64,000 nt of DNA from Haliotis cracherodii (taxonomy: Eukaryota). A model generated the notes under the pieces. That model saw nothing but the letters and a program-made list of their open reading frames with translations, made no database searches and was not told where the DNA came from. The DNA lies in NCBI RefSeq assembly GCF_022045235.1, contig NW_027266308.1, forward strand, positions 15,624,001-15,688,000. The letters run 5' to 3'. Position numbers and translations under genes: made by a program. The number at the start of each line of letters is the position of its first letter. The first letter of the stretch is position 1. Shown piece by piece: positions 9,172 to 62,858 of the stretch.

Positions 9172-10114
9172 TTAATAATTTGAAAATGAGCCACTTCTGC
9201 GTCTGAAAATCTTCTTGATAATGTTTGTGTTCTTTTTCCTGAACTTGAGAGCGGAGAAGACGACATGCTGAAAGACCTCCTTCAAACCCTTGTGGTCGCG
9301 AGCGGAGCACTCCACATAGCAGTCAGCACCAATGTCCTTGGCCAACTGGAAACCCTCGTCCGTGGAGACCTCGCTGTCTTCATTCCCGACTCGGAGGTCT
9401 ATCTTGGTGCCCACGAGGATGACCGGTCTCTTCTGTTTGGTGTGTTTGGAGTGTCTCTTCAGTTCAGGCATCCACACGTCATTGATGCTGGCCAACGTTT
9501 CCCGGTCACAGGTGGAGAAACAGAGGACCAGGACTTCACTTTCCTGATAGGAGAATGCTCTTAGACTCTCAAAACGTTTCTGGAAAGGGAAAGAAGGAAC
9601 CATAAGTACTTTGTAATGTAGAACAATGCAGAAAAAATGTAAATCTTAAAATTGTTCATAAACAATGCAGAAAATATAGACAATCAAAATGATTAATAGA
9701 AACTGTTAGAGATCTAACTATGGATATAGAAAGAGGAAAATATCAGTTCTATGAAAGGGTAGTTAATCACAAGCCTATTTTTGCATTAAGAAAAAGTATA
9801 ATTCAAACAGGAAATAGATGGAAATCTATAAAAATTAATAAACATTTTGTAAATCGGGTGTCTCATCCCGTTACGCTAAAATCTAACTTGCTACATACCT
9901 CGGCTGAGTTGTCGAACATGCTGATGACAAACTCCTCTCCAGCGACATTCAGAGGAACGACATAGTTGTCAAACACTGTGGCTTCATAATTATCCTTGAA
10001 GGACTTCTCAGCATAGCTCTCGGAGATGCTGGTCTTTCCGACCATCCCATCTCCCATGATGGCACAGTACAGGAATTTCTTATCGAGGTTCTTCATAGTA
10101 ATTCCTCCCTTCAT
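9172..10114 (-). CDS. Atypical Rho-family GTPase paralogue A (Cdc42/RhoJ/RhoQ-like), 207 aa, 2 exons
   Basis: Exon1 10114-9899 (72 codons; donor GAG|GTATGT), phase-0 intron 9898-9580 (319 nt; acceptor ttccctttccAG), exon2 9579-9172. G1 GDGMVGKTS, switch I YEATVFDNY, G3 DNSAE, G4 TKID, G5 CSAR; ends RRRSGSFSNY. AATAAA at 8827-8822. Confidence 0.93.
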
Positions 10115-13361: not shown

Positions 13362-14157
13362 TTAATAATTTGAAAATGAGCCACTTTTGCGTCTGAATAT
13401 CTTCTTGATAATGTTTGTGTTCTTTTTCCTGAACTTGAGAGCGGAGAAGACGACATGCTGAAAGACCTCCTTCAAACCCTTGTGGTCGCGAGCGGAGCAC
13501 TCCACATAGCAGTCAGCACCAATGTCCTTGGCCAACTGGAAACCCTCGTCCGTGGAGACCTCGCTGTCTGCAGTCCCGACTCGGAGGTCTATCTTGGTGC
13601 CCACGAGGATGACCGGTCTCTTCTGTTTGGTGTGTTTGGAGTGTCTCTTCAGTTCAGGCATCCACACGTCATTGATGCTGGCCAACGTTTCCCGGTCACA
13701 GGTGGAGAAACAGAGGACCAGGACTTCACTTTCCCGATAGGAGAATGCTCTTAGACTCTCAAAACGTTTCTGGAAAGGGAAAGAAGGAACCATAAGTACT
13801 TTGTAATGTAGAACAATGCAGAAAAAATGTAAGTCTTAATCAAAACAAGAAAATATCCAAATTAGTAGATATCGGTAACCATTGATTAAATGTGATGTCT
13901 CATCCCGTTACATGTACACTGATATGGATCTTGCTACATACCTCGGCTGAGTTGTCGAACATGCTGATAACAAACTCCTCTCCGGCAACTTGCAGTGGAA
14001 CGACATAGTTGTCAAACACTGTGGCTTCATAATTCTCCTTGAAGGACTTCTCAGCATAGCTCTCGGAGATGCTGGTCTTTCCGACCATCCCATCTCCCAT
14101 GATGGCACAGTACACGAATTTCTTATCGAGATTCTTCATAGTATTTCCTCCCTTCAT
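13362..14157 (-). CDS. Atypical Rho-family GTPase paralogue B, 207 aa, 2 exons
   Basis: Exon1 14157-13942, intron 13941-13770 (172 nt, GT..AG), exon2 13769-13362. G3 DNSAE, G4 TKID; ends RRKSGSFSNY. AATAAA at 13000-12995. Tandem paralogue of A with alignable UTRs and promoter. Confidence 0.93.
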
Positions 14158-27601: not shown

Positions 27602-28325
27602 ATAGTGCATAAACGCATTTAAAAAATTGAAATTCACTTGTAGATTCTTACCAAATGAATGAATCATAAAGGCGATATATAGGTTTCATAGGGCAGCTGT
27701 TGATATAACTGAATTACTTTCAGCTGAACAGTTTTCTTTTTCTTTTTAAAAACATCGTACATTTATCCTAAAAATGACATAGAGGGCAGACATAAAGCCG
27801 AGGATGACATATGAGATACCGACAAATTCACTGAAGAGCCTTGCAAATAATATACATGAGATGTTTTAATTTATTTTCTTCCAGATGTGTCAGTCTCACA
27901 TAATCAAATCCCTAGGATTAAAAAGAAAATTCTGATCGTTATACAAAAAAAGTAACTGTGAACATATATCCAACTCTTGATCTAACTGCCTGTGAAATTG
28001 TCACTTAGAAGAAAGAGACAGACGAATACTTTCCTTTCTAATAAAGTACAGGATTTAAGTTGCAATTAGCTCAGCTTTTAGACTGAAATTCATTTCGTGC
28101 TTCTACCATCCATATCGTTTCAGACAATCAAAATAATCCAGCCAAGCTAATCCATTTATTTGATTAATCCAATCCGACGTATTTGCCTAAATACAAATAC
28201 TCTAATTAGACAACTACTGATCATTGTCTGTTGATTTACAAACGAGACAGCTCAAGACGGTCATCTCAGACTTTGACACCGGGGAGAGCGCATGATACTT
28301 GCCTAATTACAGGTTTAGTCTTCTG

Positions 28326-28347
28326 ATTGGCCGGTGATATCTTTATA
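28326..28347 (+). promoter_or_regulatory. Core promoter of gene C (ATTGG-N11-TTTATA)
   Basis: ATTGG 28326-28330, CCGGTGATATC, TTTATA 28342-28347. The same motif precedes D at 33275-33296. Confidence 0.65.
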
Positions 28348-28413
28348 TTCAGACGCCCACAATGTACCAACAGAAAACGATTTGCATGTTTGAAACGATA
28401 CATTTGCATAAAC

Positions 28414-29313
28414 ATGAAGGGATGGAACAAACATATGAAGAATCTTGATGAGAAGGTCGTGTACTGTGCCATCATGGGAGATGAGATGGTCGAAAAGACC
28501 AGCATCTCCGAGAGCTATGCTGAGAAGTCTTTCAAGGAGAATTATGAAGCCACAGTGTTTGACAACTATGTCGTTCCCCTGCACGTAGCCGGAAAGGAGT
28601 TTGTCATCAGCATGTTTGACACAGCAGGAAAGGTATGTTTATTTAGATGTTACATTCAGTAATACTACTTTGTGAATTTCGTGTTAACACTGAGAATAGA
28701 ACCAGTTGCAATATTGACGAAAATTGTTTATAAGATGTGTATGGATAAGCGTGGATTATGTTTAGCTTCAGAAAAGTATCGCATCAAACATTACATTCTG
28801 AATTTAATTGAAGTGTTTCTATCACTATTTAGGTGGCATATATGCGTTTTTGTTGGTTCTATTTACTATACATCGTGTACTGATCTATCCTTCTTACGTT
28901 TACAGAAACGTTTTGAGAGCCTAAGAATGTTCTCCTACAAGGAAAGTGAAGTCCTGCTTTTGTGTTTTTCTACCTTTGACCGGAAGACATTTCACACCGT
29001 CAATGACCTGTGGATGCCTGAACTAAAGAGACACTCCAAACAACACAAACAGAAGAGACCTGTCATCCTCGTGGGCACGAAGATAGACCTCCGAGTCGGA
29101 AATGAAAGAATTGGGGTCAGCACGGACGAGGGTGTCCAGTTGGCCAAGGACATCGGTGCTGACTGCTATGTGGAGTGCTCGGCTAACGACCACAAGGGCT
29201 TGAAGGAGGTCTTTCAGCATGTTGTCTTCTCTGCTCTCAAATTCAGAAATAAGAGAACCAACATTATCCAGAAGATGTTCAGACGCAGAAGTGCCTCTTT
29301 TGTAAATTACTAG
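28414..29313 (+). CDS. Atypical Rho-family GTPase paralogue C, 208 aa, 2 exons (damaged P-loop)
   Basis: Exon1 28414-28632 (AAG|GTATGT), intron 28633-28905 (273 nt), exon2 28906-29313. G1 GDEMVEKT, G3 DTAGK, G4 TKID, G5 CSAN; ends RRRSASFVNY. AATAAA 29595-29600. Confidence 0.88.
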
Positions 29314-32300
29314 ATTCAACAGGCTTTCATGTGATGATGGAAAATTACAAAGTGCAAGCATTATGAGATATCTGAATATTGTTGCAATATGAATGTCAAA
29401 TGAAAATTACATCAACAATGGAGGGAGGGAGATGTTCCACTTTACTTATACATGACATTCATACAAAGGCTTTTCATACATACATTTTATTGAATGACCG
29501 ATTAGTGCTATTTACAACCACGTCCTATGTCTGTTATAAGTGACAATCGTTCTTTCATATATGTTACTGTTTACTGTTATTCGTATTTGCCTTCAATAAA
29601 CTATGTATGTGATATATGATCATCAGAGTCTTGTCGATATGTCTCCTCAATACGATACGTGTTTTGAGCTAAGTCAGCTCTCAATAAACACGAGAAAACG
29701 TTTTCCATAATCATAACAAATATCCATTGTACAGCGTGTATCAAAAGTATGTGTTTATGAATCATTATCAAAAGTGATGATACGAAAAGGCAAGCGTATC
29801 ATGTCCCAACCGGAGATACTCGTCAAATACACAGTTGAAAGAGCATGCTCGAGTATACCTCGAAGGATGTGGAATGTAGACAACAAAGACTGCAGCTGCT
29901 GGAATATTGCTCGACATATGTGGAAATTTGACTCTTGCACAGTCATCCCTCTTGTCGTATGGTCTTGTGGGTTGTTTGTTTTTTCACTCTGAATCTTTAT
30001 GCATAAATCTCTATTTTAAGTTCAGGTGGGTAAATAAGAGGAGGGGATTTAGCTATTAGATCACGAATATGCCTAAAGCTTAAGTTAAACTTCTGGTCCT
30101 AATTCCCACGCAAATGAAACGCAGTTTCGTTTCTACGAGAATACGTTTAAAAGGACTAAACAGTTTTACACGAATGTCTCTTTCGACTGATTTACGTGTA
30201 TGAAAATATATGTCCACACATCATTGACTCTTTTATGTACACTAAAACAGACTGGGAAGATTTAAAAATAAAGCCAAAATAGTATGTTACCGATTTGGAT
30301 TCAATACAGATTTGTCACGGTCAGTTTTGTTAAGGATTTGGAGGCTGGTAGTGTTTATTCGAGGACCAAGTGAACAGTGACCTCGACTTTAATTCTCGCT
30401 ATGTATTTTGATTAGTTCCGTAAGACAAATACCTTAACTGCCCTTTATTGTGCTAAATGTTAGCCTTGAAACAAGAATTCGATTTCCTATACGTGCTGGG
30501 GCATGAGTTCATGTCTCAGCAATTCTGCTGCTTGAAGAAACGTTTCACGTTATATGTTTCTGTCTCTTAAATATAATCTGAAACTCGCGATATTGTGATA
30601 ATGTTTGGATTGAATGAATGAGTGGCTCTTTGAGTACATGTAAATCATCGAAGTTCGGGAAGCATGCACCTATGTATAAAACTTCACTGTCAATGGCTAC
30701 GACGTAGGTGTACAGTAATGAAGGTGCGTGTCAAGGTGAGTTATTTTAGCAATTACCTATAGACTGTCACGCACGTTGTGACATCTATTAGATCACTGGC
30801 CATCTACCACAAATTGCCAAAAGGATATACATGCAATCTATCCAAGGGAGTCGGCAACGAATATTAATACAGGCTCTGCACAATGTATGTTGTGATGTTT
30901 TGCTATTCAAACTATTTTGAATTAATATCTTCAAACAACATACGTTTCACCAACAGTAAAGCAAATGTGTTACACAACAAGAAGAGCAATACCTCTTTTC
31001 TGTTTGAAACAACACAAAGATGAATCCTACGGTCAGACAGCCCATTTATAAAAGTTTTATTGGCCAACTGTATAGTGACCTGAAACCCACTATGTCGCAC
31101 TCGCTGTTCCTGCCGAACAGCTTACAACCATACTAACTCAATCACAGAGCTATATTTACTGGTATTGTCTCACTTTGATAGACATTTCTCGTCTTCCATT
31201 TTTACCAACTTTTGAAAGTCCATCAACGACTTCAATGAACATGTCTCGTCTACCTAAACGGAAAGGAGATGGTAATAATAATGACAATATTCTGTTACAC
31301 CGCAGAAAACAACCAGTGCATTGCAACGACAACGAGGCTATTTGACGGGATGTGATTGGCTTCTGTCCATTGCCGCCTTATCCTTTCATTGTAAAACAAC
31401 AACGAATCCATTCACTTCTATTAATCCAATCAGACGTGTTTCCTTAGCCACTCTGAATCAGACAGCTACAAAATCAACAACGCTAATTCGAAGTGTTTAT
31501 TTGCATACATTTCCACTAATGAGCATGACACAACTAATATGTAAACATATACCAGGATTAAATTAGACATAGCTGCTTTAAAGATAAGTGTGCAAATGCA
31601 TGAAGAGACACAATATCAGCAACCATTTCCCTTAACCTACATATGTCTGGAAAGAAAGCCTCTAAAACTTCTAATCCGTGACTATGTAATGTTTTCGAAA
31701 ATACATAATTGCTGGGGTAAATAATATAACAAATAGATGGTGTGTAGAGGTAGAGTCAGACAATAATTTCAATAATTCGAACTCAAACAAACTTCATTTC
31801 ACTTGAGGTCATGTCATGGCAACCGAAGGTATAAGTATAAATTAATATAAGAAATCTTTGCAAACTCGATGGTAAAACACTGTGCATAAACGCATGTAGT
31901 ACATTATACATTTTTACTCATCATTCACGAGTACATTCTTACCAAATCCTACAGGAGATAAAATAATTAAGTTAGATTTACATCAGCAAGTGTTGATAAT
32001 ATTTACATACTTTCAACTTTACAACTTTCTTATTATTTAAAACATCCTACATATATACTAAAACTAATACACAGATCAAACATAATGCCAAATATGGTAC
32101 ATGCGATAGCGACAAATTCGCTGAAGCGCTGGCAAATAAGGTGCGGGAAATGCTTTTTACTTTCTTCCAGATTTTGTTCGTTCCAGACCAACACAATTAA
32201 TGCTTTACGTTTGAGTAGACAATATAATTGGATCTTTTTTAAATAAATAAGCGTGAGCATACATACGAAACCATCTTTAAATCTCTATGAAATTACTTTG

Positions 32301-33141: not shown

Positions 33142-36100
33142 ACAAATACTCTAATTAGACAGCTACTGATCATTGTCTGTTGATTTACAAACGAGACAGC
33201 TCAAGACGGTCATCTCAGACTTTGACACCGGGGAGAGCGCATGATACTTGCCTAATTACAGGTTTAGTCTTCTGATTGGCCGGTGATATCTTTATATTCA
33301 GACGCCCACAAAGTACCAACAGAAAACGCGTTGCACGTTTGAAACGATACATTTGCATAAACATGAAGGGATGGAACAAACATATGAAGAACCTTGATGA
33401 GAAGGTCGTGTACTGTGCCATCATGGGAGATGAGATGGTCGGAAAGACCAGCATCTCCGAGAGCTATGCTAAGAAATCTTTCAAGGAGAATTATGAAGCC
33501 ACAGTGTTCGACAACTATGTCGTTCCCCTGCACGTAGCCGGAAAGGAGTTTGTCATCAGCATGTTTGACACAGCAGGAAAGGTATGTTTATTTAGATGTT
33601 ACATTCAGTAATACTACTTTGTGAATTTCGTGTTAACACTGAGAATAGAACCAGTTGCAATATTGACGAAAATTGTTTATAAGATGTGTATGGATAAGCG
33701 TGGATTATGTTTAGCTTCAGAAAAGTATCGCATCAAACATTACATTCTGAATTTAATTGAAGTGTTTCTATCACTATTTAGGTGGCATATATGCGTTTTT
33801 GTTGGTTCTATTTACTATACATCGTGTACTGATCTATCCTTGTTACGTTTACAGAAACATTTTGAGAGCCTAAGAATGTTCTCCTACAAGGAAAGTGAAG
33901 TCCTGCTTTTGTGTTTTTCTACCTGTGACCGGAAGACATTTCACACCGTCAATGACCTATGGATGCCTGAACTAAAGAGACACTCCAAACAACACAAACA
34001 GAAGAGACCTGTCATCCTCGTGGGCACGAAGATAGACCTCCGAGTCGGAAATGAAAGAATTGGGGTCAGCACGGACGAGGGTGTCCAGTTGGCCAAGGAC
34101 ATCGGTGCTGACTGCTATGTGGAGTGCTCGGCTAACGACCACAAGGGCTTGAAGGAGGTCTTTCAGCATGTTGTCTTCTCTGCTCTCAAATTCAGAAATA
34201 AGAGAACCAACATTATCCAGAAGATGTTCAGACGCAGAAGTGCCTCTTTTGTAAATTACTAGATTCAACAGGCTTTCATGTGATGATGGAAAATTACAAA
34301 GTGCAAGCATTATGAGATATCTGAATATATTGTTGCAATATGAATGTCAAATGAAAATTACATCAACAATGAAGGGAGGGAGATGTTCCACTTTACTTAT
34401 ACATGACATTTATACAAAGGCTTTTCATACATACATTTTATTGAATGACCGATTAGTGCTATTTACAACCACGTCCTATGTCTGTTATTAGTGACAATCG
34501 TTCTTTCATATATGTTACTGTTTACTGTTATTCGTAATTGCCTTCAATAAACTATGTATGTGATATATGATCATCAGAGTCTTGTCGATATGTCTCCTCA
34601 ATACGATACGTGTTTTGAGCTAAGTCAGCTCTCAATAAACACGAGAAAACGTTTTCCATAATCATAACAAATATCTGCTAAAAGCAGAGTCCATTGTACA
34701 GCGTGTATCAAAAGTATGTGTTTATGAATCATTATCAAAAGTGATGATACGAAAAGACAAGCGTATCATGCCCCAACCGGAGATACTCGTCAAATACACA
34801 GTTGAAAGAGCGTGCTCGAGTATACCTCGAAGGATGTGGAATGTAGACAACAAAGACTGCAGCTGCTGGAATATTGCTCGACATATGTGGAAATTTGACT
34901 CTTGCACAGTCATCCCTCTTGTCGTATGGTCTTGTGGGTTGTTTGTTTTTTCACTCTGAATCTTTATGCATAAATCTCTATTTTAAGTTCAGGTGGGTAA
35001 ATAAGAGGAGGGGATTTAGCTATTAGATCACGAATATGCCTAAAGCTTAAGTTAAACTTCTGGTCCTAATTCCCACGCAAATGAAACGCAGTTTCGTTTC
35101 TACGAGAATACGTTTAAAAGGACTAAACAGTTTTACACGAATGTCTCTTTCGACTGATTTACGAGTATGAAAATATATGTCCACACATCATTGACTCTTT
35201 TATGTACACTAAAACAGACTGGGAAGATTTAAAAATAAAGCCAAAATAGTATGTTACCGATTTGGATTCAACACAGATTTGTCACGGTCAGTTTTGTTAA
35301 GGATTTGGAGGCTGGTAGTGTTTATTCGAGGACCAAGTGAACAGTGACCTCGACTTTAATTCTCGCTATGTATTTTGATTAGTTCCGTAAGACAAATACC
35401 TTAACTGCCCTTTATTGTGCTAAATGTTAGCCTTGAAACAAGAATTCGATTTCCTATACGTGCTGGGGCATGAGTTCATGTCTCAGCAATTCTGCTGCTT
35501 GAAGAAACGTTTCACGTTATATGTTTCTGTCTCTTAAATATAATCTGAAACTCGCGATGTTGTGATAATGTTTGGATTGAATGAATGAGTGGCTCTTTGA
35601 GTACATGTAAATCATCGAAGTTCGGGAAGCATGCACCTATGTATAAAACTTCACTGTCAATGGCTACGACGTAGGTGTACAGTAATGAAGGTGCGTGTCA
35701 AGGTGAGTTATTTTAGCAATTACCTATAGACTGTCACGCACGTTGTGACATCTATTAGATCACTGGCCGTCTACCACAAATTGCCAACAGGATATACATG
35801 CAATCTATCCAAGGGAGTCGGCAACGAATATTAATACAGGCTCTGCACAATATATGTTGTGATGTTTTGCTATTCAAACTATTTTGAATTAATATCTTCA
35901 AACAACATACGTTTCACCAACAGTAAAGCAAATGTGTTACACAACAAGAAGAGCAATACCTCTTTTCTGTTTGAAACAACACAAAGATGAATCCTACGGT
36001 CAGACAGCCCATTTATAAAAGTTTTATTGGCCAACTGTATAGTGACCTGAAACCCACTATGTCGCACTCGCTGTTCCTGCCGAACAGCTTACAACCATAC

Positions 36101-36756
36101 TAACTCAATCACAGAGCTATATTTACTGGTATTGTCTCACTTTGATAGACATTTCTCGTCTTCCATTTTTACCAACTTTTGAAAGTCCACCAACGACTTC
36201 AATGAACATGTCTCGTCTACCTAAACGGAAAGGAGATGGTAATAATAATGACAATATTCTGTTACACCGCAGAAAACAACCAGTGCATTGCAACGACAAC
36301 GAGGCTATTTGACGGGATGTGATTGGCTTCTGTCCATTGCCGCCTTATCCTTTCATTGTAAAACAACAACAAATCCATTCACTTCTATTAATCCAACCAG
36401 ACGTGTTTCCTTAGCCACTCTGAATCAGACAGCTACAAAATCAACAACGCTAATTCGAAGTGTTTATTTGCATACATTTCCACTAATGAGCATGATACAA
36501 CTAATATGTAAACATATACCAGGATTAAATTAGACATAGCTGCTTTAAAGATAAGTGTGCAAATACATGAAGAGACACAATATCAGCAACCATTTCCCTT
36601 AACCTACATATGTCTGGAAAGAAAGCCTCTAAAACTTCTAATCCGTGACTATGTAATGTTTTCGAAAATACATAATTGCTGGGGTAAATAATATAACAAA
36701 TAGATGGTGTGTAGAGGTAGAGTCAGACAATAATTTCAATAATTCGAACTCAAACA
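33142..36756 (+). repeat. Segmental duplication, copy 2 (contains gene D)
   Basis: Nearly identical to 28193-31789; ends abruptly at a LINE junction at 36757. Confidence 0.95.
33363..34262 (+). CDS. Atypical Rho-family GTPase paralogue D, 208 aa, 2 exons
   Basis: Exon1 33363-33581, intron 33582-33854, exon2 33855-34262. G1 GDEMVGKT, G3 DTAGK. AATAAA 34546-34551. Confidence 0.91.
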
Positions 36757-38849: not shown

Positions 38850-40049
38850 CAAAATACATAATGGCAGTATTGATAGTTATGAATAGTCAAGCGTTTATCC
38901 CCAAACAAATATTTTAATTAGACAGCTACTGACCATTATCTGTTGATTACAAACGAGACAGCTCAAGACGGTCATCTCAGACTTTGACACCGGTGAGAGC
39001 ACGTGAAACGTACCTAATTACAGATTTACCCTTCTGATTAGCTCACAATATCTTTATATTCAGACGCCCACAATGTCCCAACAGAAAGACCTGTTAAGAT
39101 CCCGTTAGGGAATAGGTGTTCAGTAACCCATGCTTGCCTATGGCGACTATGCTTGTCGTAAGAGGCGACTAACGGGATCGGGTGGTCAGGCACGCTGACT
39201 TGGTACATGTCATCGTATCCCACTTGCGTGGATCGATGCTCATGATATCCATCAGTGGACTGTCTGGTCCGGACTCGATTATTTACAGAACGTCGTCATA
39301 TTGCTGGAATATTGTGCGGCGTTAAACAACAAACATCGCATACGATGCCTAATTGACTCTTCCATCCTCATCTAATACTTTGAGCATAACATTACTTTGG
39401 AAGTGGGATCGACTTGCATTCATTCGCAAAAACTTAATTCAGTTATTCAGTACTTAACTGCCCTTATTTGCGTATTTATGACCATACAATGACGCCTTGT
39501 TTCCCCGAGAATAGCTTTAATTGCTGCAAATCTTCCCACACCAAGAAAACATTTGAAATAGCACGCTTGTATATATTTGTGTCTTGATATTAATATTTTA
39601 TATTTCAGAATCATACATCAATATTGGATCGATTTCACCGTCAAATATGTTACAAGCAGTCGAGAAATCTATAAATCTGGTTATTAATGAACAAATGAAA
39701 AACTGGCCCCATTGCCTGGCGTACTTGCATGGCAAGAGGTTTATGTATATAATTATCGTACTGATCGATCCTTTTTACAAGGAAACAAACAATCCAAAGA
39801 GAAGAAACCGGTCATCCCCGTTGGCACCAAGATAAACCTCCGAGATGGGAATCAAGGAAGCGAGGTCATCATGAACGCGGGTTACTAACTGGCTAAGGAT
39901 ATTGGTGCTGACTGCTATGTTGAGTGCTCGGTTCGCGACCACACGGGTTTAGAGAAGAGTTTTAGGCATGTCGTCTTCTCCACTCTGAGAGAACCAACAT
40001 TATCAAGAAGATGTTCAGACGCAGAAGTGCCTCTTTTGCAAATATTTAG
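38850..40049 (+). pseudogene. Pseudogene of the Rho-like family (C/D type)
   Basis: Promoter 38850-39087 is homologous to D. A SINE sits at the presumptive 5' UTR and exon 1 is absent. Exon-2 remnant about 39775-40049 reads KKPVIPVGTKINLRDGNQGSEVIMNAGY*LAKDIGADCYVECSVRDHTGLEKSFRHVVFSTL / RTNIIKKMFRRRSASFANI*, with TAA at 39886-39888 and deletions. Confidence 0.9.
39088..39333 (+). mobile_element. SINE family S1 inserted just downstream of the pseudogene TATA
   Basis: S1 consensus begins right after ..gtcccaacagaaa. Confidence 0.8.
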
Positions 40050-40980: not shown

Positions 40981-41147
40981 NNNNNNNNNNNNNNNNNNNN
41001 NNNNNNNNNNNNNNNNNNNNNNNNNNNNNNNNNNNNNNNNNNNNNNNNNNNNNNNNNNNNNNNNNNNNNNNNNNNNNNNNNNNNNNNNNNNNNNNNNNNN
41101 NNNNNNNNNNNNNNNNNNNNNNNNNNNNNNNNNNNNNNNNNNNNNNN
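40981..41147. other. Assembly gap (167 N)
   Basis: Run of n. Confidence 1.
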
Positions 41148-54089: not shown

Positions 54090-54699
54090 CGACTTCCTCA
54101 TTATTAGTAGAAGAAACAGAAACCAGTAATTGAGATTTGAGTTGTTAAATGTTTAATTAATTTTATATGGTCAACGGTATGGAAAGAAATGCTGATAGCA
54201 AGTAAGAGCATCATCTTTACTGATTATTATTAATATCATTATTATTACATCTGCCGAAATGAACATGTTTTAAAACAATGGATACCGTATCACGTGCAGA
54301 CAAGCGACAATGATATCTGGTCAATAGAGAGGAGATTAGAACTGTATAATGCTGTGTTACCTGTGTTAGTGACATATTTGTAAATTGTCTTTTGAACGGA
54401 CCCATTTGGTATATTTGGCCCTATTAGCATAGAAAGGGAAAAGATTTTATAACATACCCAAACTGTATTTCATAAGTCTCATTAGTGATTCCATTACAAT
54501 TTGAACAATTTGTAAAACCATCCTTATCAATAATTGACTTGTACGTATAAAGTTCACAGTGGCAAATACGACGTCATACTTTCGTTTGCGCCTGCGAATC
54601 TTTCGGTAAGTCTGAAATGAAGGGCACAAAGATTGCATGCATCGAATTGTGCCATTATTCCACAACGCTTATCACACAGAGTGCAATGGTGCGGTTTGG

Positions 54700-54963
54700 T
54701 TCGTTGGTTTGTTGTTTAACGCCGCACTCTGCAATATTCCAGCTATATGACGGCGGTCTGTAAATAATCGAGTCTTGACCAGACAATCCAGTGATTAATA
54801 TCATTACCATCGATCCACACAATTGGGATCGATGACATGCATCAACCAAGTCAGCGAGACTGACCACCCGATCCCGTTAGTCGTCCCTTACGACAAGCGT
54901 AGTCGCCTTTTACGGCAAGCATGGATTGCTGAAGACCTATTCTACCCCGGATCTTCACGGGTC
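54700..54963 (-). mobile_element. SINE family S1
   Basis: Well-preserved reverse complement of the S1 consensus. Confidence 0.85.
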
Positions 54964-57263: not shown

Positions 57264-58136
57264 ATGAAAAACGTCAATATGAAGAACGATGAAGAAAAAT
57301 ACATATCCTGTGCCATCATGGGAGACGGGATGGTCGGAAAGACCAGCATCTCCGAGAGCTATGCCCAGAAATCCTTCAAGGAGAACTATGAAGCCACAGT
57401 GTTTGATAACTATGTCGTTCCACTGAATGTAGCTGAGGAGGAGTTTGTCATCAGCATGTTCGATACTGCAGGAAAGGTGAGCTGACAATAATGCCAGAAA
57501 TATGTTCACTTTTTGTTTAAAAGAGACCAGTCTAGTTTTTTGCTGTACTAATGTATGTATTATGGATCATTGACTACCTATGAGTAGCTCACTGTTGCAA
57601 TTACATGAGCTTGACAATGGCATTGTGCCACATGTATTATAGATATAATATACATTCTACTTAATTTATTACAGAACGTTTAAGCGCATACATGTATGTT
57701 CATGGATCTTGAAAAACAATAAATGTTTACCTTTTTTGTTTCATATTTCCAGAAAAACTTTGAGAATCTCCGTTCCTTCACATACCGTGAGAGTGAAGTC
57801 CTGCTTCTGTGTTTCTCCACCTGTGACCGGGAAACGTTGGCCAGCATCAATGACGTGTGGATGCCTGAACTGAAGAGACACTCCAAACACACCAAACAGA
57901 AGAGACCGGTCATCCTCGTGGGCACCCAAATTGATCTCCGTTTCGGGAATGAAGACAGCGAGGTCTCCACGGACGAGGGTGTCCAGTTGGCCAAGGACAT
58001 TGGTGCTGACTGCTATGTGGAGTGCTCTGCTCGCGACCACAAGGGTTTGAAGGAGGTCTTTCAGCATGTCGTCTTCTCCGCTCTCAAGTTCAGGAAAAAG
58101 AACACAAACATTATCAAGAAGATCTTCAGACGTTGA
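57264..58136 (+). CDS. Atypical Rho-family GTPase paralogue E, 198 aa, 2 exons
   Basis: Exon1 57264-57476 (AAG|GTGAGC), intron 57477-57752 (276 nt), exon2 57753-58136. G3 DTAGK, G4 TQID; ends KKIFRR*. AATAAA 58660-58665. Confidence 0.93.
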
Positions 58137-59102: not shown

Positions 59103-59275
59103 TGGAGGCGGTCGGGTAGCCTAGTGGTTAAAGCGTTCGCTCGTCGAGCCGAAGACCCGGGTTCGAATCCCGACATGGGTACAATGTGTGAAGCCCATTT
59201 CTGGTGTCCCCCGCCGTGATATTGCTTGAATATTGCTTAAAGCGGCGTAAAACCAAACTCACTCACTCACTCACT
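59103..59275 (+). mobile_element. tRNA-derived SINE family S2 with TSD
   Basis: A and B boxes, (CACT)n tail. TSD CACATAGGAATG at 59091-59102 and 59276-59287. Confidence 0.9.
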
Positions 59276-60082: not shown

Positions 60083-60630
60083 ATCATTCTGACGGTTAGA
60101 ACATGATGTATAAGTCAATGTCCAAAGTCACACTGACGATCTTATTATGATGTAGAGGTCAATGTCTAACATCACTCTGACGATCTTAATATGATGTAGA
60201 GGTCAATGTCTAACATCACTTTGGCGATCTTAATATGATGTAGAGGTCAATGTCTAACATCACTCTGACGATCTTAATATGATGTAGAGGTCAATGTCTA
60301 ACATCACTCTGACGATCTTGATATGATGTAGACCCGTGAAGATCCGGAGTAGAATACGTCTTCAGCAACCCTTGCTTGCCGTAAAAGGCGGCTATGCTTG
60401 TCGTGAGAGGCGACTGACGGGATCGGGTGGTCAGTCTTACTGGCATGGTTGATGCATGTTATCATTTCCCAATTGCGTGGATGGATGCTCATGATGTCAA
60501 TCACTGGATTGTTTGGTCCAGACTCGATTATTTACAAACCGCCGTCATATAGCTGGATTATTGAAGAGTGCGGCGTTAAACAACACACAAACAAACCAAT
60601 AATATGATGTAGAAGTCAATGTCCAACATG
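60083..60630. repeat. 44-bp minisatellite interrupted by an S1 SINE
   Basis: Unit CACTCTGACGATCTTAATATGATGTAGAGGTCAATGTCTAACAT, about 6 copies. Confidence 0.9.
60331..60600 (+). mobile_element. SINE family S1 with TSD
   Basis: Begins gacccgtgaagatccgg; flanked by ATATGATGTA at 60321-60330 and 60602-60611. Confidence 0.88.
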
Positions 60631-62013: not shown

Positions 62014-62858
62014 ATGAAGGGTCGCAATATGAAGGCTGATTCGCAGAAATACATATCCTGTGCCATCATGGGAGACGGGATGGTCGGAAAGACCAGCATC
62101 TCCGAAAGCTATGCCCAGAAATCCTTCAAGGAGAACTATGAAGCCACAGTGTTTGATAACTATGTCGTTCCACTGAATGTAGCTGAGGAGGAGTTTGTTA
62201 TCAGCATGTTTGACACAGCAGGAGAGGTGAGCAAAATATTTGAACGATGATCTATCGATTGGTATCTGATGTATTTTATGTATGACAATTCTTTCTTTGA
62301 AGAAACAAGATTGTGTTCGCTATTGATTCAAACTCGTTATGGAAAATGTATACTTGCTGCAGTGCTAGGCTACGACAGCATGGCTAAGATATTCTCAAAT
62401 GAAAAATAACAAAAATATTGTCAGTCGTAATGCTACAAGAGTCATACATTTACCTTTCCTTTTCTTATTTCCAGAAAAACTTTGAGAATCTCCGTTCCTT
62501 CACATACCGTGAGAGTGAAGTCCTGCTTCTGTGTTTCTCCACCTGTGACCGGGAAACGTTGGCCAGCATCAATGACGTGTGGATGCCTGAACTGAAGAGA
62601 CACTCCAAACACACCAAACAGAAGAGACCGGTCATCCTCGTGGGCACCCAAATTGATCTCCGTTTCGGGAATGAAGACAGCGAGGTCTCCACGGACGAGG
62701 GTGTCCAGTTGGCCAAGGACATTGGTGCTGACTGCTATGTGGAGTGCTCTGCTCGCGACCACAAGGGTTTGAAGGAGGTCTTTCAGCATGTCGTCTTCTC
62801 CGCTCTCAAGTTCAGGAAAAAGAACACAAACATTATCAAGCAGATCTTCAGATTGTAA
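62014..62858 (+). CDS. Atypical Rho-family GTPase paralogue F, 198 aa, 2 exons
   Basis: Exon1 62014-62226 (GAG|GTGAGC), intron 62227-62474 (248 nt), exon2 62475-62858. G3 DTAGE, G4 TQID; ends KQIFRL*. AATAAA 63456-63461. Confidence 0.93.

What the first reader, a model, noticed from the sequence alone, without database searches (positions are those of the whole stretch)
9899..9913. G3 motif diversified three ways, with the catalytic codon pinned at the splice donor
Seen: DTAGQ is replaced by DNSAE (A,B), DTAGK (C,D,E) and DTAGE (F). The Q61-equivalent codon is the last codon of exon 1 and is always NAG (GAG or AAG) before GT. CAG therefore changed only at its first base and kept the AG|GT donor context. 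A and B also lose the near-invariant G60 (to Ala), which in Ras-family proteins contacts the gamma-phosphate and drives switch II movement. From memory, and needing verification, RhoJ/Q/U/V genes have a phase-0 intron right after Q61 while Cdc42 has a phase-1 intron in G60, which would support RhoJ/Q ancestry. Inference: repeated change at the catalytic residue with no copy retaining Q suggests selection, and A/B may be mechanistically different (switch-uncoupled) from C-F.
Basis: partly seen in the sequence, partly recalled or inferred. Interest (0 to 1): 0.7.

Follow-up and report, generated by a model that had tools for sequence, protein, structure and literature searches.

The report
Abalone Rho copies lacking catalytic glutamine
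Abalones carry a row of duplicated Rho-type signalling-switch genes that have lost the residue used to switch off, while the parent gene nearby keeps it; the copies likely act as slow-to-turn-off signals, and two have a rebuilt switch loop kept across four species.

Summary
The motifs are real: DNSAE (A,B), DTAGK (C,D,E), DTAGE (F), each ending exon 1 as NAG|GT. All six spliced proteins equal RefSeq Haliotis models. Two readings fail. (1) 'No copy retains Q' holds only inside the window: the parent gene 63 kb beyond it has DTAGQ in four species, and a neighbour 10 kb before it has DTAAQ. Q was most simply lost once (to K), then K became E twice. (2) The splice pin is the ordinary -1 G: 19 of 20 abalone Rho genes with this intron end in G, but CTG and CAT also occur there, and Q61K also arose in a gene with no intron at that place. 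The A/B idea holds up: T58N, A59S, G60A and 61E are fixed in 6 of 6 proteins from four species, are tightly clustered, and Ala60 occurs in 0 of 91 non-abalone relatives. The copies are under purifying selection and keep their nucleotide-binding residues (except C). They belong to a mollusc-wide, CAAX-less Cdc42-like subfamily whose sister group is unresolved. Best reading, inferred and not assayed: hydrolysis-impaired atypical Rho proteins, convergent with Rnd/RhoH.

The parts
9899..9913 (-). Gene A G3 motif DNSAE (T58N, A59S, G60A, Q61E in Rac/Cdc42 numbering); codon 61 GAG is the last of exon 1
9899..10114 (-). Gene A exon 1 (72 codons: P-loop GDGMVGKT, switch I TVFDNY, G3); lacks the parent's first intron
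   Evidence: (product = P0035)
9580..9898 (-). Gene A phase-0 GT-AG intron, 319 nt, directly after codon 61
   Evidence: agrees with the RefSeq model
9172..9579 (-). Gene A exon 2: switch II KRFESLR, G4 TKID, G5 CSA, basic amphipathic tail, no CAAX
13362..14157 (-). Gene B (exons 14157-13942 and 13769-13362), G3 DNSAE, GAG|GT
   Evidence: P0036; intron joined in one contig
28414..29313 (+). Gene C (exons 28414-28632 and 28906-29313), G3 DTAGK, P-loop GDEMVEKT (G12E and G15E)
   Evidence: (P0047)
33363..34262 (+). Gene D (exons 33363-33581 and 33855-34262), G3 DTAGK, P-loop GDEMVGKT (G12E)
   Evidence: P0009
39784..40043 (+). Broken relic of exon 2 (in-frame stop, frameshift); no exon 1 found for it
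57264..58136 (+). Gene E (exons 57264-57476 and 57753-58136), G3 DTAGK, AAG|GT
   Evidence: P0003
62014..62858 (+). Gene F (exons 62014-62226 and 62475-62858), G3 DTAGE, GAG|GT
   Evidence: P0046

Best explanation
The six genes are abalone tandem duplicates of a nearby CAAX-less Rho-family parent that keeps Q61; they have lost Q61 and likely work as hydrolysis-impaired, GTP-loaded proteins controlled by expression rather than by GAPs. Shown: duplication from the parent lineage, loss of its first intron, purifying selection, intact nucleotide-binding motifs in 5 of 6, and class-specific G3 motifs kept across species. Inferred history: one Q61K in the common ancestor, K->E twice, and in the A/B lineage a rebuild of four adjacent codons (T58N, A59S, G60A, 61E). 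Inferred mechanism: C-F would sit GTP-bound with a Cdc42-like switch I core exposed (C probably binds nucleotide poorly). A/B would also bind GTP, but by analogy with Ras G60A would hold the switches open and signal weakly or to other partners. A basic amphipathic tail would replace prenylation. The splice donor only holds the third base of codon 61 at G and does not explain the choice of K or E.
For: Parent DTAGQ at C45:15750743-15752409 and in 4 of 4 Haliotis species. Parent plus copies form a clade at 100/99, the derived copies one at 100/99. dN/dS among A-F: exon 1 at most 0.30 in 15 of 15 pairs; exon 2 at most 0.35 in 12 of 15, the other three resting on 0-1 synonymous differences. DNSAE is in 6 of 6 A/B-class proteins from four species while 16 of 186 other sites vary; 4 of 7 class-fixed differences lie in codons 58-61 (P about 1e-4, post hoc). 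Among 33 Haliotis family proteins K16, T35, Y40 and D57 are kept in 33, G15 in 32, F28 in 30. The model of A has pLDDT 89 and a Rho/Rac fold, rmsd about 2 A. Literature: all codon-61 HRAS mutants tested, Q61E included, hydrolysed more slowly and Q61K transformed strongly (PMC6813200, passages). H-Ras G60A is mostly in state 1 with impaired hydrolysis, state 1 having poor effector affinity (PMC4867591, passages). Rnd/RhoH/RhoBTB are GTPase-deficient through changes at 12, 59 and 61 (PMC6321241, passages).
Against: No biochemistry; every functional step is carried over from Ras and human Rho mutants. The switch II surface also differs (62-64 are KRF/KNF/KHF; E62 is kept in 1 of 91 non-abalone relatives), so the analogies may not transfer. 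I recall reports that Ras Q61E can hydrolyse faster intrinsically (no call). Transcript support for the copies is thin: the deep contigs laid on F carry the parent's letters at 16 of 17 listed sites, and contig depth cannot rank genes. C has G15E and a broken relic lies at 39784-40043, so some copies do decay. No site-wise positive-selection test was possible without other species' coding DNA.
Confidence: 0.6

Rival explanations
1. Relaxed selection: once the parent kept the function, the copies drifted and the G3 changes are tolerated damage.
For: The parent keeps DTAGQ; C has G15E and there is a broken relic; C/D-class proteins vary at 52 of 186 sites; many other abalone Rho paralogues also carry changes at 12 or 61.
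Against: dN/dS well under 1; DNSAE and DTAGK each present in four species; no reversal or other residue at 61 among the 25 A/B, C/D and E/F-class proteins (17 K, 8 E); clustering of the A/B changes.
Confidence: 0.13
2. A/B (and Z) are paralogue-encoded dominant negatives: GTP- or GEF-bound open-switch decoys that sequester regulators of the parent.
For: G60A arose in A/B (GCC) and apparently separately in Z (GCG), whose exon 1 is synonymous-saturated against all others; Ras G60A is called dominant negative in a reference title seen in PMC4867591.
Against: Switch II residues that contact GEFs in Rac/Cdc42 (recalled) are changed family-wide; no GEF for the parent is known; co-expression with the parent is not shown.
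Confidence: 0.12
3. The copies still cycle, using Glu61/Lys61 or a residue supplied by a dedicated GAP, as Rap-type GTPases do (recalled).
For: All other catalytic and binding residues are kept; the oyster family member has DSAGE with Gly60, so Glu61 recurs in the family (8 of 91 rows).
Against: Lys61 with G12E/S/D in the C/D and some E/F-class proteins stacks two hydrolysis-impairing changes.
Confidence: 0.1
4. Splice constraint is what shaped the residue: only NAG codons are tolerated at this donor, so K and E are the only exits from Q.
For: 17 of 20 intron-bearing genes end in AG; three successive changes all keeping NAG has chance probability about 0.02-0.03.
Against: CTG|GT in L089 and L090 and CAT|GT in L092 (exons predicted by me, and L092 has a GC donor at a later intron); Q61K as AAA without an intron in L083; H, C and L at 61 in 8 of 91 non-abalone relatives (their introns not checked).
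Confidence: 0.05

Closest known systems
GTPase-deficient atypical Rho proteins (Rnd1-3, RhoH, RhoBTB1-2)
   Same: Natural substitutions at positions 12, 59 and 61 in a Rho G domain; RhoBTB also lacks CAAX (PMC6321241 passages).
   Different: Separate origin: best solved relatives are TC10 and Cdc42. Residues are K/E, not those of Rnd/RhoH (recalled S/N). A/B also lose Gly60. A Q61 parent sits in the same cluster.
Oyster 'CgiRhoJ' XP_011427678.1 (Beljan et al. 2020, PMC7600811)
   Same: Same subfamily: it is P0112, falls in the family clade, has GDGMVGKT, Glu61 (DSAGE) and no CAAX cysteine.
   Different: In the section and passages I read the paper notes only the missing CAAX cysteine and files it under Rho; it keeps Gly60.
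RhoJ/RhoQ (TCL/TC10) and RhoU/RhoV
   Same: TQxD G4 in the parent; TC10 is the best PDB hit (145.7 bits against 138.9 for Cdc42); the parent has the same three-exon layout (59-nt middle exon) as abalone RhoU and the TC10-like gene.
   Different: No CAAX, no C-terminal cysteine, insert about 9 residues shorter; own clade, 97/87 with the chiton protein.
Engineered and oncogenic Ras mutants Q61K, Q61E, G60A
   Same: The same substitutions at the same positions.
   Different: Here they are fixed germline states in paralogues. The KRAS Q61K splice problem is creation of a cryptic donor (PMC11448470, one passage), not a codon at an existing donor.

Membership tests
Rho family G domain | G1 GxxxxGK[ST], T35, D57, G4 T[KQ]xD, G5 CSA | tested here: met
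   6 of 6, except G15E in C
Rho family G domain | Rho/Rac fold | tested here: met
   Model of A, pLDDT 89; top Foldseek hits Rac1, EhRho1, Rac3, RhoA, Cdc42
Classical cycling Rho (Cdc42/Rac/RhoA) | G3 DxxGQ | tested here: not met
   Q61 in 0 of 6; Gly60 in 4 of 6
Classical cycling Rho (Cdc42/Rac/RhoA) | C-terminal CAAX | tested here: not met
   No Cys in the last 25 residues of A-F; Cys at -4 in 0 of 91 non-abalone relatives
Classical cycling Rho (Cdc42/Rac/RhoA) | Full Rho insert helix | tested here: not met
   9-residue gap against TC10 for the parent; only a 3-residue helix there in the model of A
GTPase-deficient atypical Rho (works like) | Substitutions at 12, 59 or 61 | tested here: met
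   61 in 6 of 6; 59 in A,B; 12 in C,D
GTPase-deficient atypical Rho (works like) | No measurable hydrolysis, GAP-insensitive, GTP-bound in cells | not testable with these tools
   Needs biochemistry
Rnd/RhoH/RhoBTB (membership) | Closest relatives are Rnd, RhoH or RhoBTB | tested here: not met
   The 60 best PDB hits shown are TC10, Cdc42 and Rac types; no Rnd/RhoH row was in my trees
RhoJ/RhoQ | Phase-0 intron after Q61 | tested here: inconclusive
   Present, but shared by 20 of 35 abalone Rho genes examined, RhoU included; human gene structures not available
RhoJ/RhoQ | One clade with the abalone TC10-like gene | tested here: inconclusive
   Not recovered, not rejected (p-AU 0.16). The TC10-like label is mine from recalled motifs; its last exon hits Cdc42 above TC10
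RhoU/RhoV | One clade with abalone RhoU | tested here: inconclusive
   p-AU 0.19; RhoU identified by best hit 2q3h
RhoU/RhoV | Palmitoylated C-terminal cysteines and proline-rich N-terminal extension | tested here: not met
   No tail cysteine; N-terminus 12-15 residues without proline in A-F

The most novel reading that the evidence does not exclude
The cluster is a selected natural allelic series of a Rho switch: cycling parent (DTAGQ), locked-on copies (Q61K, Q61E, G12E+Q61K) and open-switch decoys (G60A in Z; T58N/A59S/G60A/Q61E in A/B) that act as paralogue-encoded dominant negatives, tuning one unprenylated mollusc Rho pathway by gene dosage instead of GEF/GAP control.
Probability: 0.15. 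Interest if true: 0.7.

Novelty: new variant of a known kind. Interest (0 to 1): 0.42.

Why it matters
Natural loss of Q61 is known in Rho proteins (Rnd, RhoH), but a maintained Gly60-to-Ala change inside a fully rebuilt G3 loop is rare: 0 of 91 relatives outside abalone. The cluster puts a Q61 parent beside Q61K, Q61E, G12E+Q61K, G60A and NSAE copies that are 74-81% identical to it, a ready-made set for asking what G3 changes do in an evolved rather than engineered background. It also points to a mollusc-wide, CAAX-less Rho subfamily that databases label Cdc42, RhoJ, RhoQ or RhoL and that my searches did not find described as a group. The splice-site part is ordinary.

Tried and rejected
Micro-exon restoring DTAGQ: no such motif in six frames of the window. 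Special NAG pin: rejected in favour of the ordinary -1 G. Intron as a RhoJ/Q marker: not diagnostic. Sister-group tests: none of four rejected (p-AU 0.07-0.19). The 248-nt join near F belongs to parent-type contigs. The first fold modelled the parent from 13 sequences (pLDDT 72) and was not used further; ligand-free models say nothing about switch state. Exon-wise trees on 60 and 126 columns are poorly resolved, so event counts are parsimony estimates. Earlier scan findings: none by place or sequence. Paper searches for a description of this cluster or subfamily gave only PMC4669188 (9-12 bivalve Rho genes; no such group in the part and passages read; its supplements not opened), PMC7600811 (above) and PMC11250055 (unspecified 'cdc42 homolog' up-regulated after Vibrio challenge; passages; cannot be tied to these genes). 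No complex prediction was run, since no binding is claimed. Distribution outside molluscs was not tested beyond the 120 best of 418 hits.

Full report
Observation. The minus strand at 9913-9899 reads DNSAE and is followed at once by GT. All six genes have two exons split by a phase-0 intron after codon 61, which is GAG (A, B, F) or AAG (C, D, E). The spliced proteins are identical to six RefSeq models that the source names Haliotis cracherodii. One shallow contig joins the B intron exactly (1 of 4 runs, depth 2.4).

The cluster is larger than the window. Searches of the own genome found three more members on the same contig. Z, about 10 kb before the window, has DTAAQ and a P-loop GDSHIGKS. 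The parent, about 63 kb after the window, has DTAGQ and an extra phase-1 intron after NYA. A more distant paralogue about 152 kb after the window has DTPGQ. The parent has DTAGQ in 4 of 4 Haliotis species in the protein collection. So Q61 is retained in the cluster. Deep contigs laid on F carry the parent's letters at 16 of 17 listed sites, so the parent is transcribed if those runs are RNA; depth cannot rank the genes.

Family. An alignment search gave 418 hits, of which the best 120 were listed; the named ones are molluscs apart from two fungal Rho1 and one fish protein. In a 48-row tree the family forms a clade (97/87 with the chiton protein, 99/95 without), apart from abalone Cdc42, Rac, RhoA, RhoU and a TC10-like gene. 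Parent plus copies form a clade at 100/99 and the copies one at 100/99. None of 91 non-abalone rows with a G3 motif has Cys at -4 (6 fragments and 3 non-family rows were dropped). The tail after helix 5 has a net charge of +6 to +9 in A-F; its best 11-residue window is more amphipathic than any in the G domain for A, B, E and F, and than all but 5 of 163 for C and D. Membrane binding through it is an inference. The oyster member is the 'CgiRhoJ' of PMC7600811, noted there for lacking the CAAX cysteine.

History of G3. Codons are CAG (parent, Z), AAG (C, D, E) and GAG (A, B, F). F-type Glu is found only in two species and the asinina and rubra proteins of that class have Lys; A/B group with C/D on exon 2 (support 98). 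The simplest history is one Q->K and two K->E; the trees are short and alternatives are not excluded. Six copies without Q therefore reflect mostly one inherited loss.

Selection. Pairwise dN/dS among A-F is 0.05-0.30 on the last 60 codons of exon 1 (15 of 15 pairs) and 0.17-0.35 on the first 126 codons of exon 2 (12 of 15; A/B 0.81, C/D 0.52 and E/F undefined rest on 0-1 synonymous differences). DNSAE is in 6 of 6 A/B-class proteins from four species while 16 of 186 other sites vary. Three of four sites unique to the class are 58, 59 and 60, and 4 of 7 class-fixed differences fall in 58-61 (chance about 1e-4, computed after seeing the pattern). At position 60, 90 of 91 non-abalone rows have Gly, one Ser, none Ala; in Haliotis 8 of 33 have Ala. 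At 61, non-abalone rows have Q 75, E 8, H 4, C 2, L 2 and no K. Against a tidy picture: C carries G15E on a 3.6-kb block 98.6% identical to D's, and a broken exon-2 relic lies at 39784-40043.

The splice pin. Of 35 abalone Rho genes examined (those I fetched, not a full census, and not independent), 20 have the intron. Of these, 19 end the exon in G and 17 in AG. Q/K/E codons end in G in 17 of 17 genes with the intron and 8 of 13 without (Fisher p 0.009). That is the ordinary -1 G of a donor. The middle base is not fixed: L089 and L090 have CTG|GT in phase-consistent exons and L092 has CAT|GT (my exon predictions, and L092 has a GC donor further on, so it may be damaged). L083, a Cdc42 paralogue without this intron, has Q61K as AAA. 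Three changes all keeping NAG has chance 0.02-0.03, so some bias remains, but preference for charged residues explains it as well as splicing does.

The intron as ancestry marker. Abalone Cdc42, Rac and RhoA have no intron at G60 or Q61. RhoU (best PDB hit 2q3h), the TC10-like gene and several others have it, three of them grouping weakly with Rac (83/30). The parent's best solved relative is TC10, narrowly over Cdc42. AU tests reject none of TC10-like, RhoU, Cdc42 or Rac as sister (p 0.16, 0.19, 0.07, 0.07). RhoJ/Q ancestry is possible, not shown.

Mechanism. Shown: K16, T35, Y40 and D57 are kept in 33 of 33 Haliotis family proteins, G15 in 32 and F28 in 30; the fold is Rho/Rac-like; switch I of A-F reads TVFDNY as in abalone Cdc42, while switch II positions 62-64 change from acidic to KRF, KHF or KNF. 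Inferred from Ras and Rho mutants: loss of Q61, with G12E in C/D, slows hydrolysis and blunts GAP action (PMC6813200 and PMC6321241, passages), so D, E and F likely sit GTP-bound and are controlled by expression. G60A favours the open state 1 with poor hydrolysis and effector affinity in H-Ras (PMC4867591, passages), so A/B likely bind GTP without closing the switches. None of this is assayed. I put the hydrolysis-impaired reading at 0.6, drift at 0.13, a dominant-negative decoy role at 0.12, alternative catalysis at 0.1 and splice-driven choice at 0.05.

Comparison and novelty. The copies work like Rnd/RhoH in logic but are not members of those groups; they fail the classical Rho tests for Q61, CAAX and the insert helix. 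Searches found no description of the cluster or the subfamily, within a library that lacks most subscription journals. Verdict: a real, maintained, new variant of a known kind; the splice-pin part is ordinary. Interest 0.42.

Noticed in passing
G000:C45:15613727-15612498 (L073), about 10 kb before the window: Gene Z: exon 1 is synonymous-saturated against all cluster genes, parent included, while exon 2 has dS 0.09 to E/F. This suggests exon-2 homogenisation by conversion or a chimeric gene. G3 is DTAAQ here and in H. rufescens, DTASE in H. rubra.
   Followed up: partly
window A-F and L073, against L074: All seven derived copies lack the parent's phase-1 intron after NYA but keep the intron after codon 61: one precise intron loss at the base of the expansion.
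   Followed up: partly
window 28193-31789 and 33142-36756: 3.6-kb block 98.6% identical carrying C and D; very recent duplication or an uncollapsed haplotype. C alone has G15E among 124 family rows.
   Followed up: no
window 57726-58130 and 62449-62852: E and F exon 2 have no synonymous difference while exon 1 has five: recent conversion of exon 2 is likely.
   Followed up: partly
L083 (C15:9.98 Mb), L092 (C8:16.34 Mb), L087, L089, L090 (C45), L028, L035, L036 (C56): Many other abalone Rho paralogues carry changes at 12, 60 or 61 (G12E+Q61K, G12E+Q61H, DTVEE, DTVGL, DTLGL, DTGGS, DTSEQ, DAGGS), so atypical Rho copies are common in this genome.
   Followed up: partly
P0061, P0065, P0068, P0073, P0083 (Babylonia, Nucella); Potamilus and Sinanodonta rows: Independent expansions of the same subfamily in other molluscs; the whelk copies show DTRGC, DTSGH, DTRGH and DTSGL.
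   Followed up: no
family alignment, position 62: The switch II glutamate E62 is kept in only 1 of 91 non-abalone and 0 of 33 Haliotis rows, so the whole subfamily may be uncoupled from usual GEF catalysis (role of E62 recalled).
   Followed up: no
window about 1102-1369, 39087-39335, 54696-54963, 60331-60599 and 59107-59250: Short high-copy repeats, very deep in all laid runs; probably SINE-like elements.
   Followed up: no
window 40981-41147: A run of 167 N.
   Followed up: no
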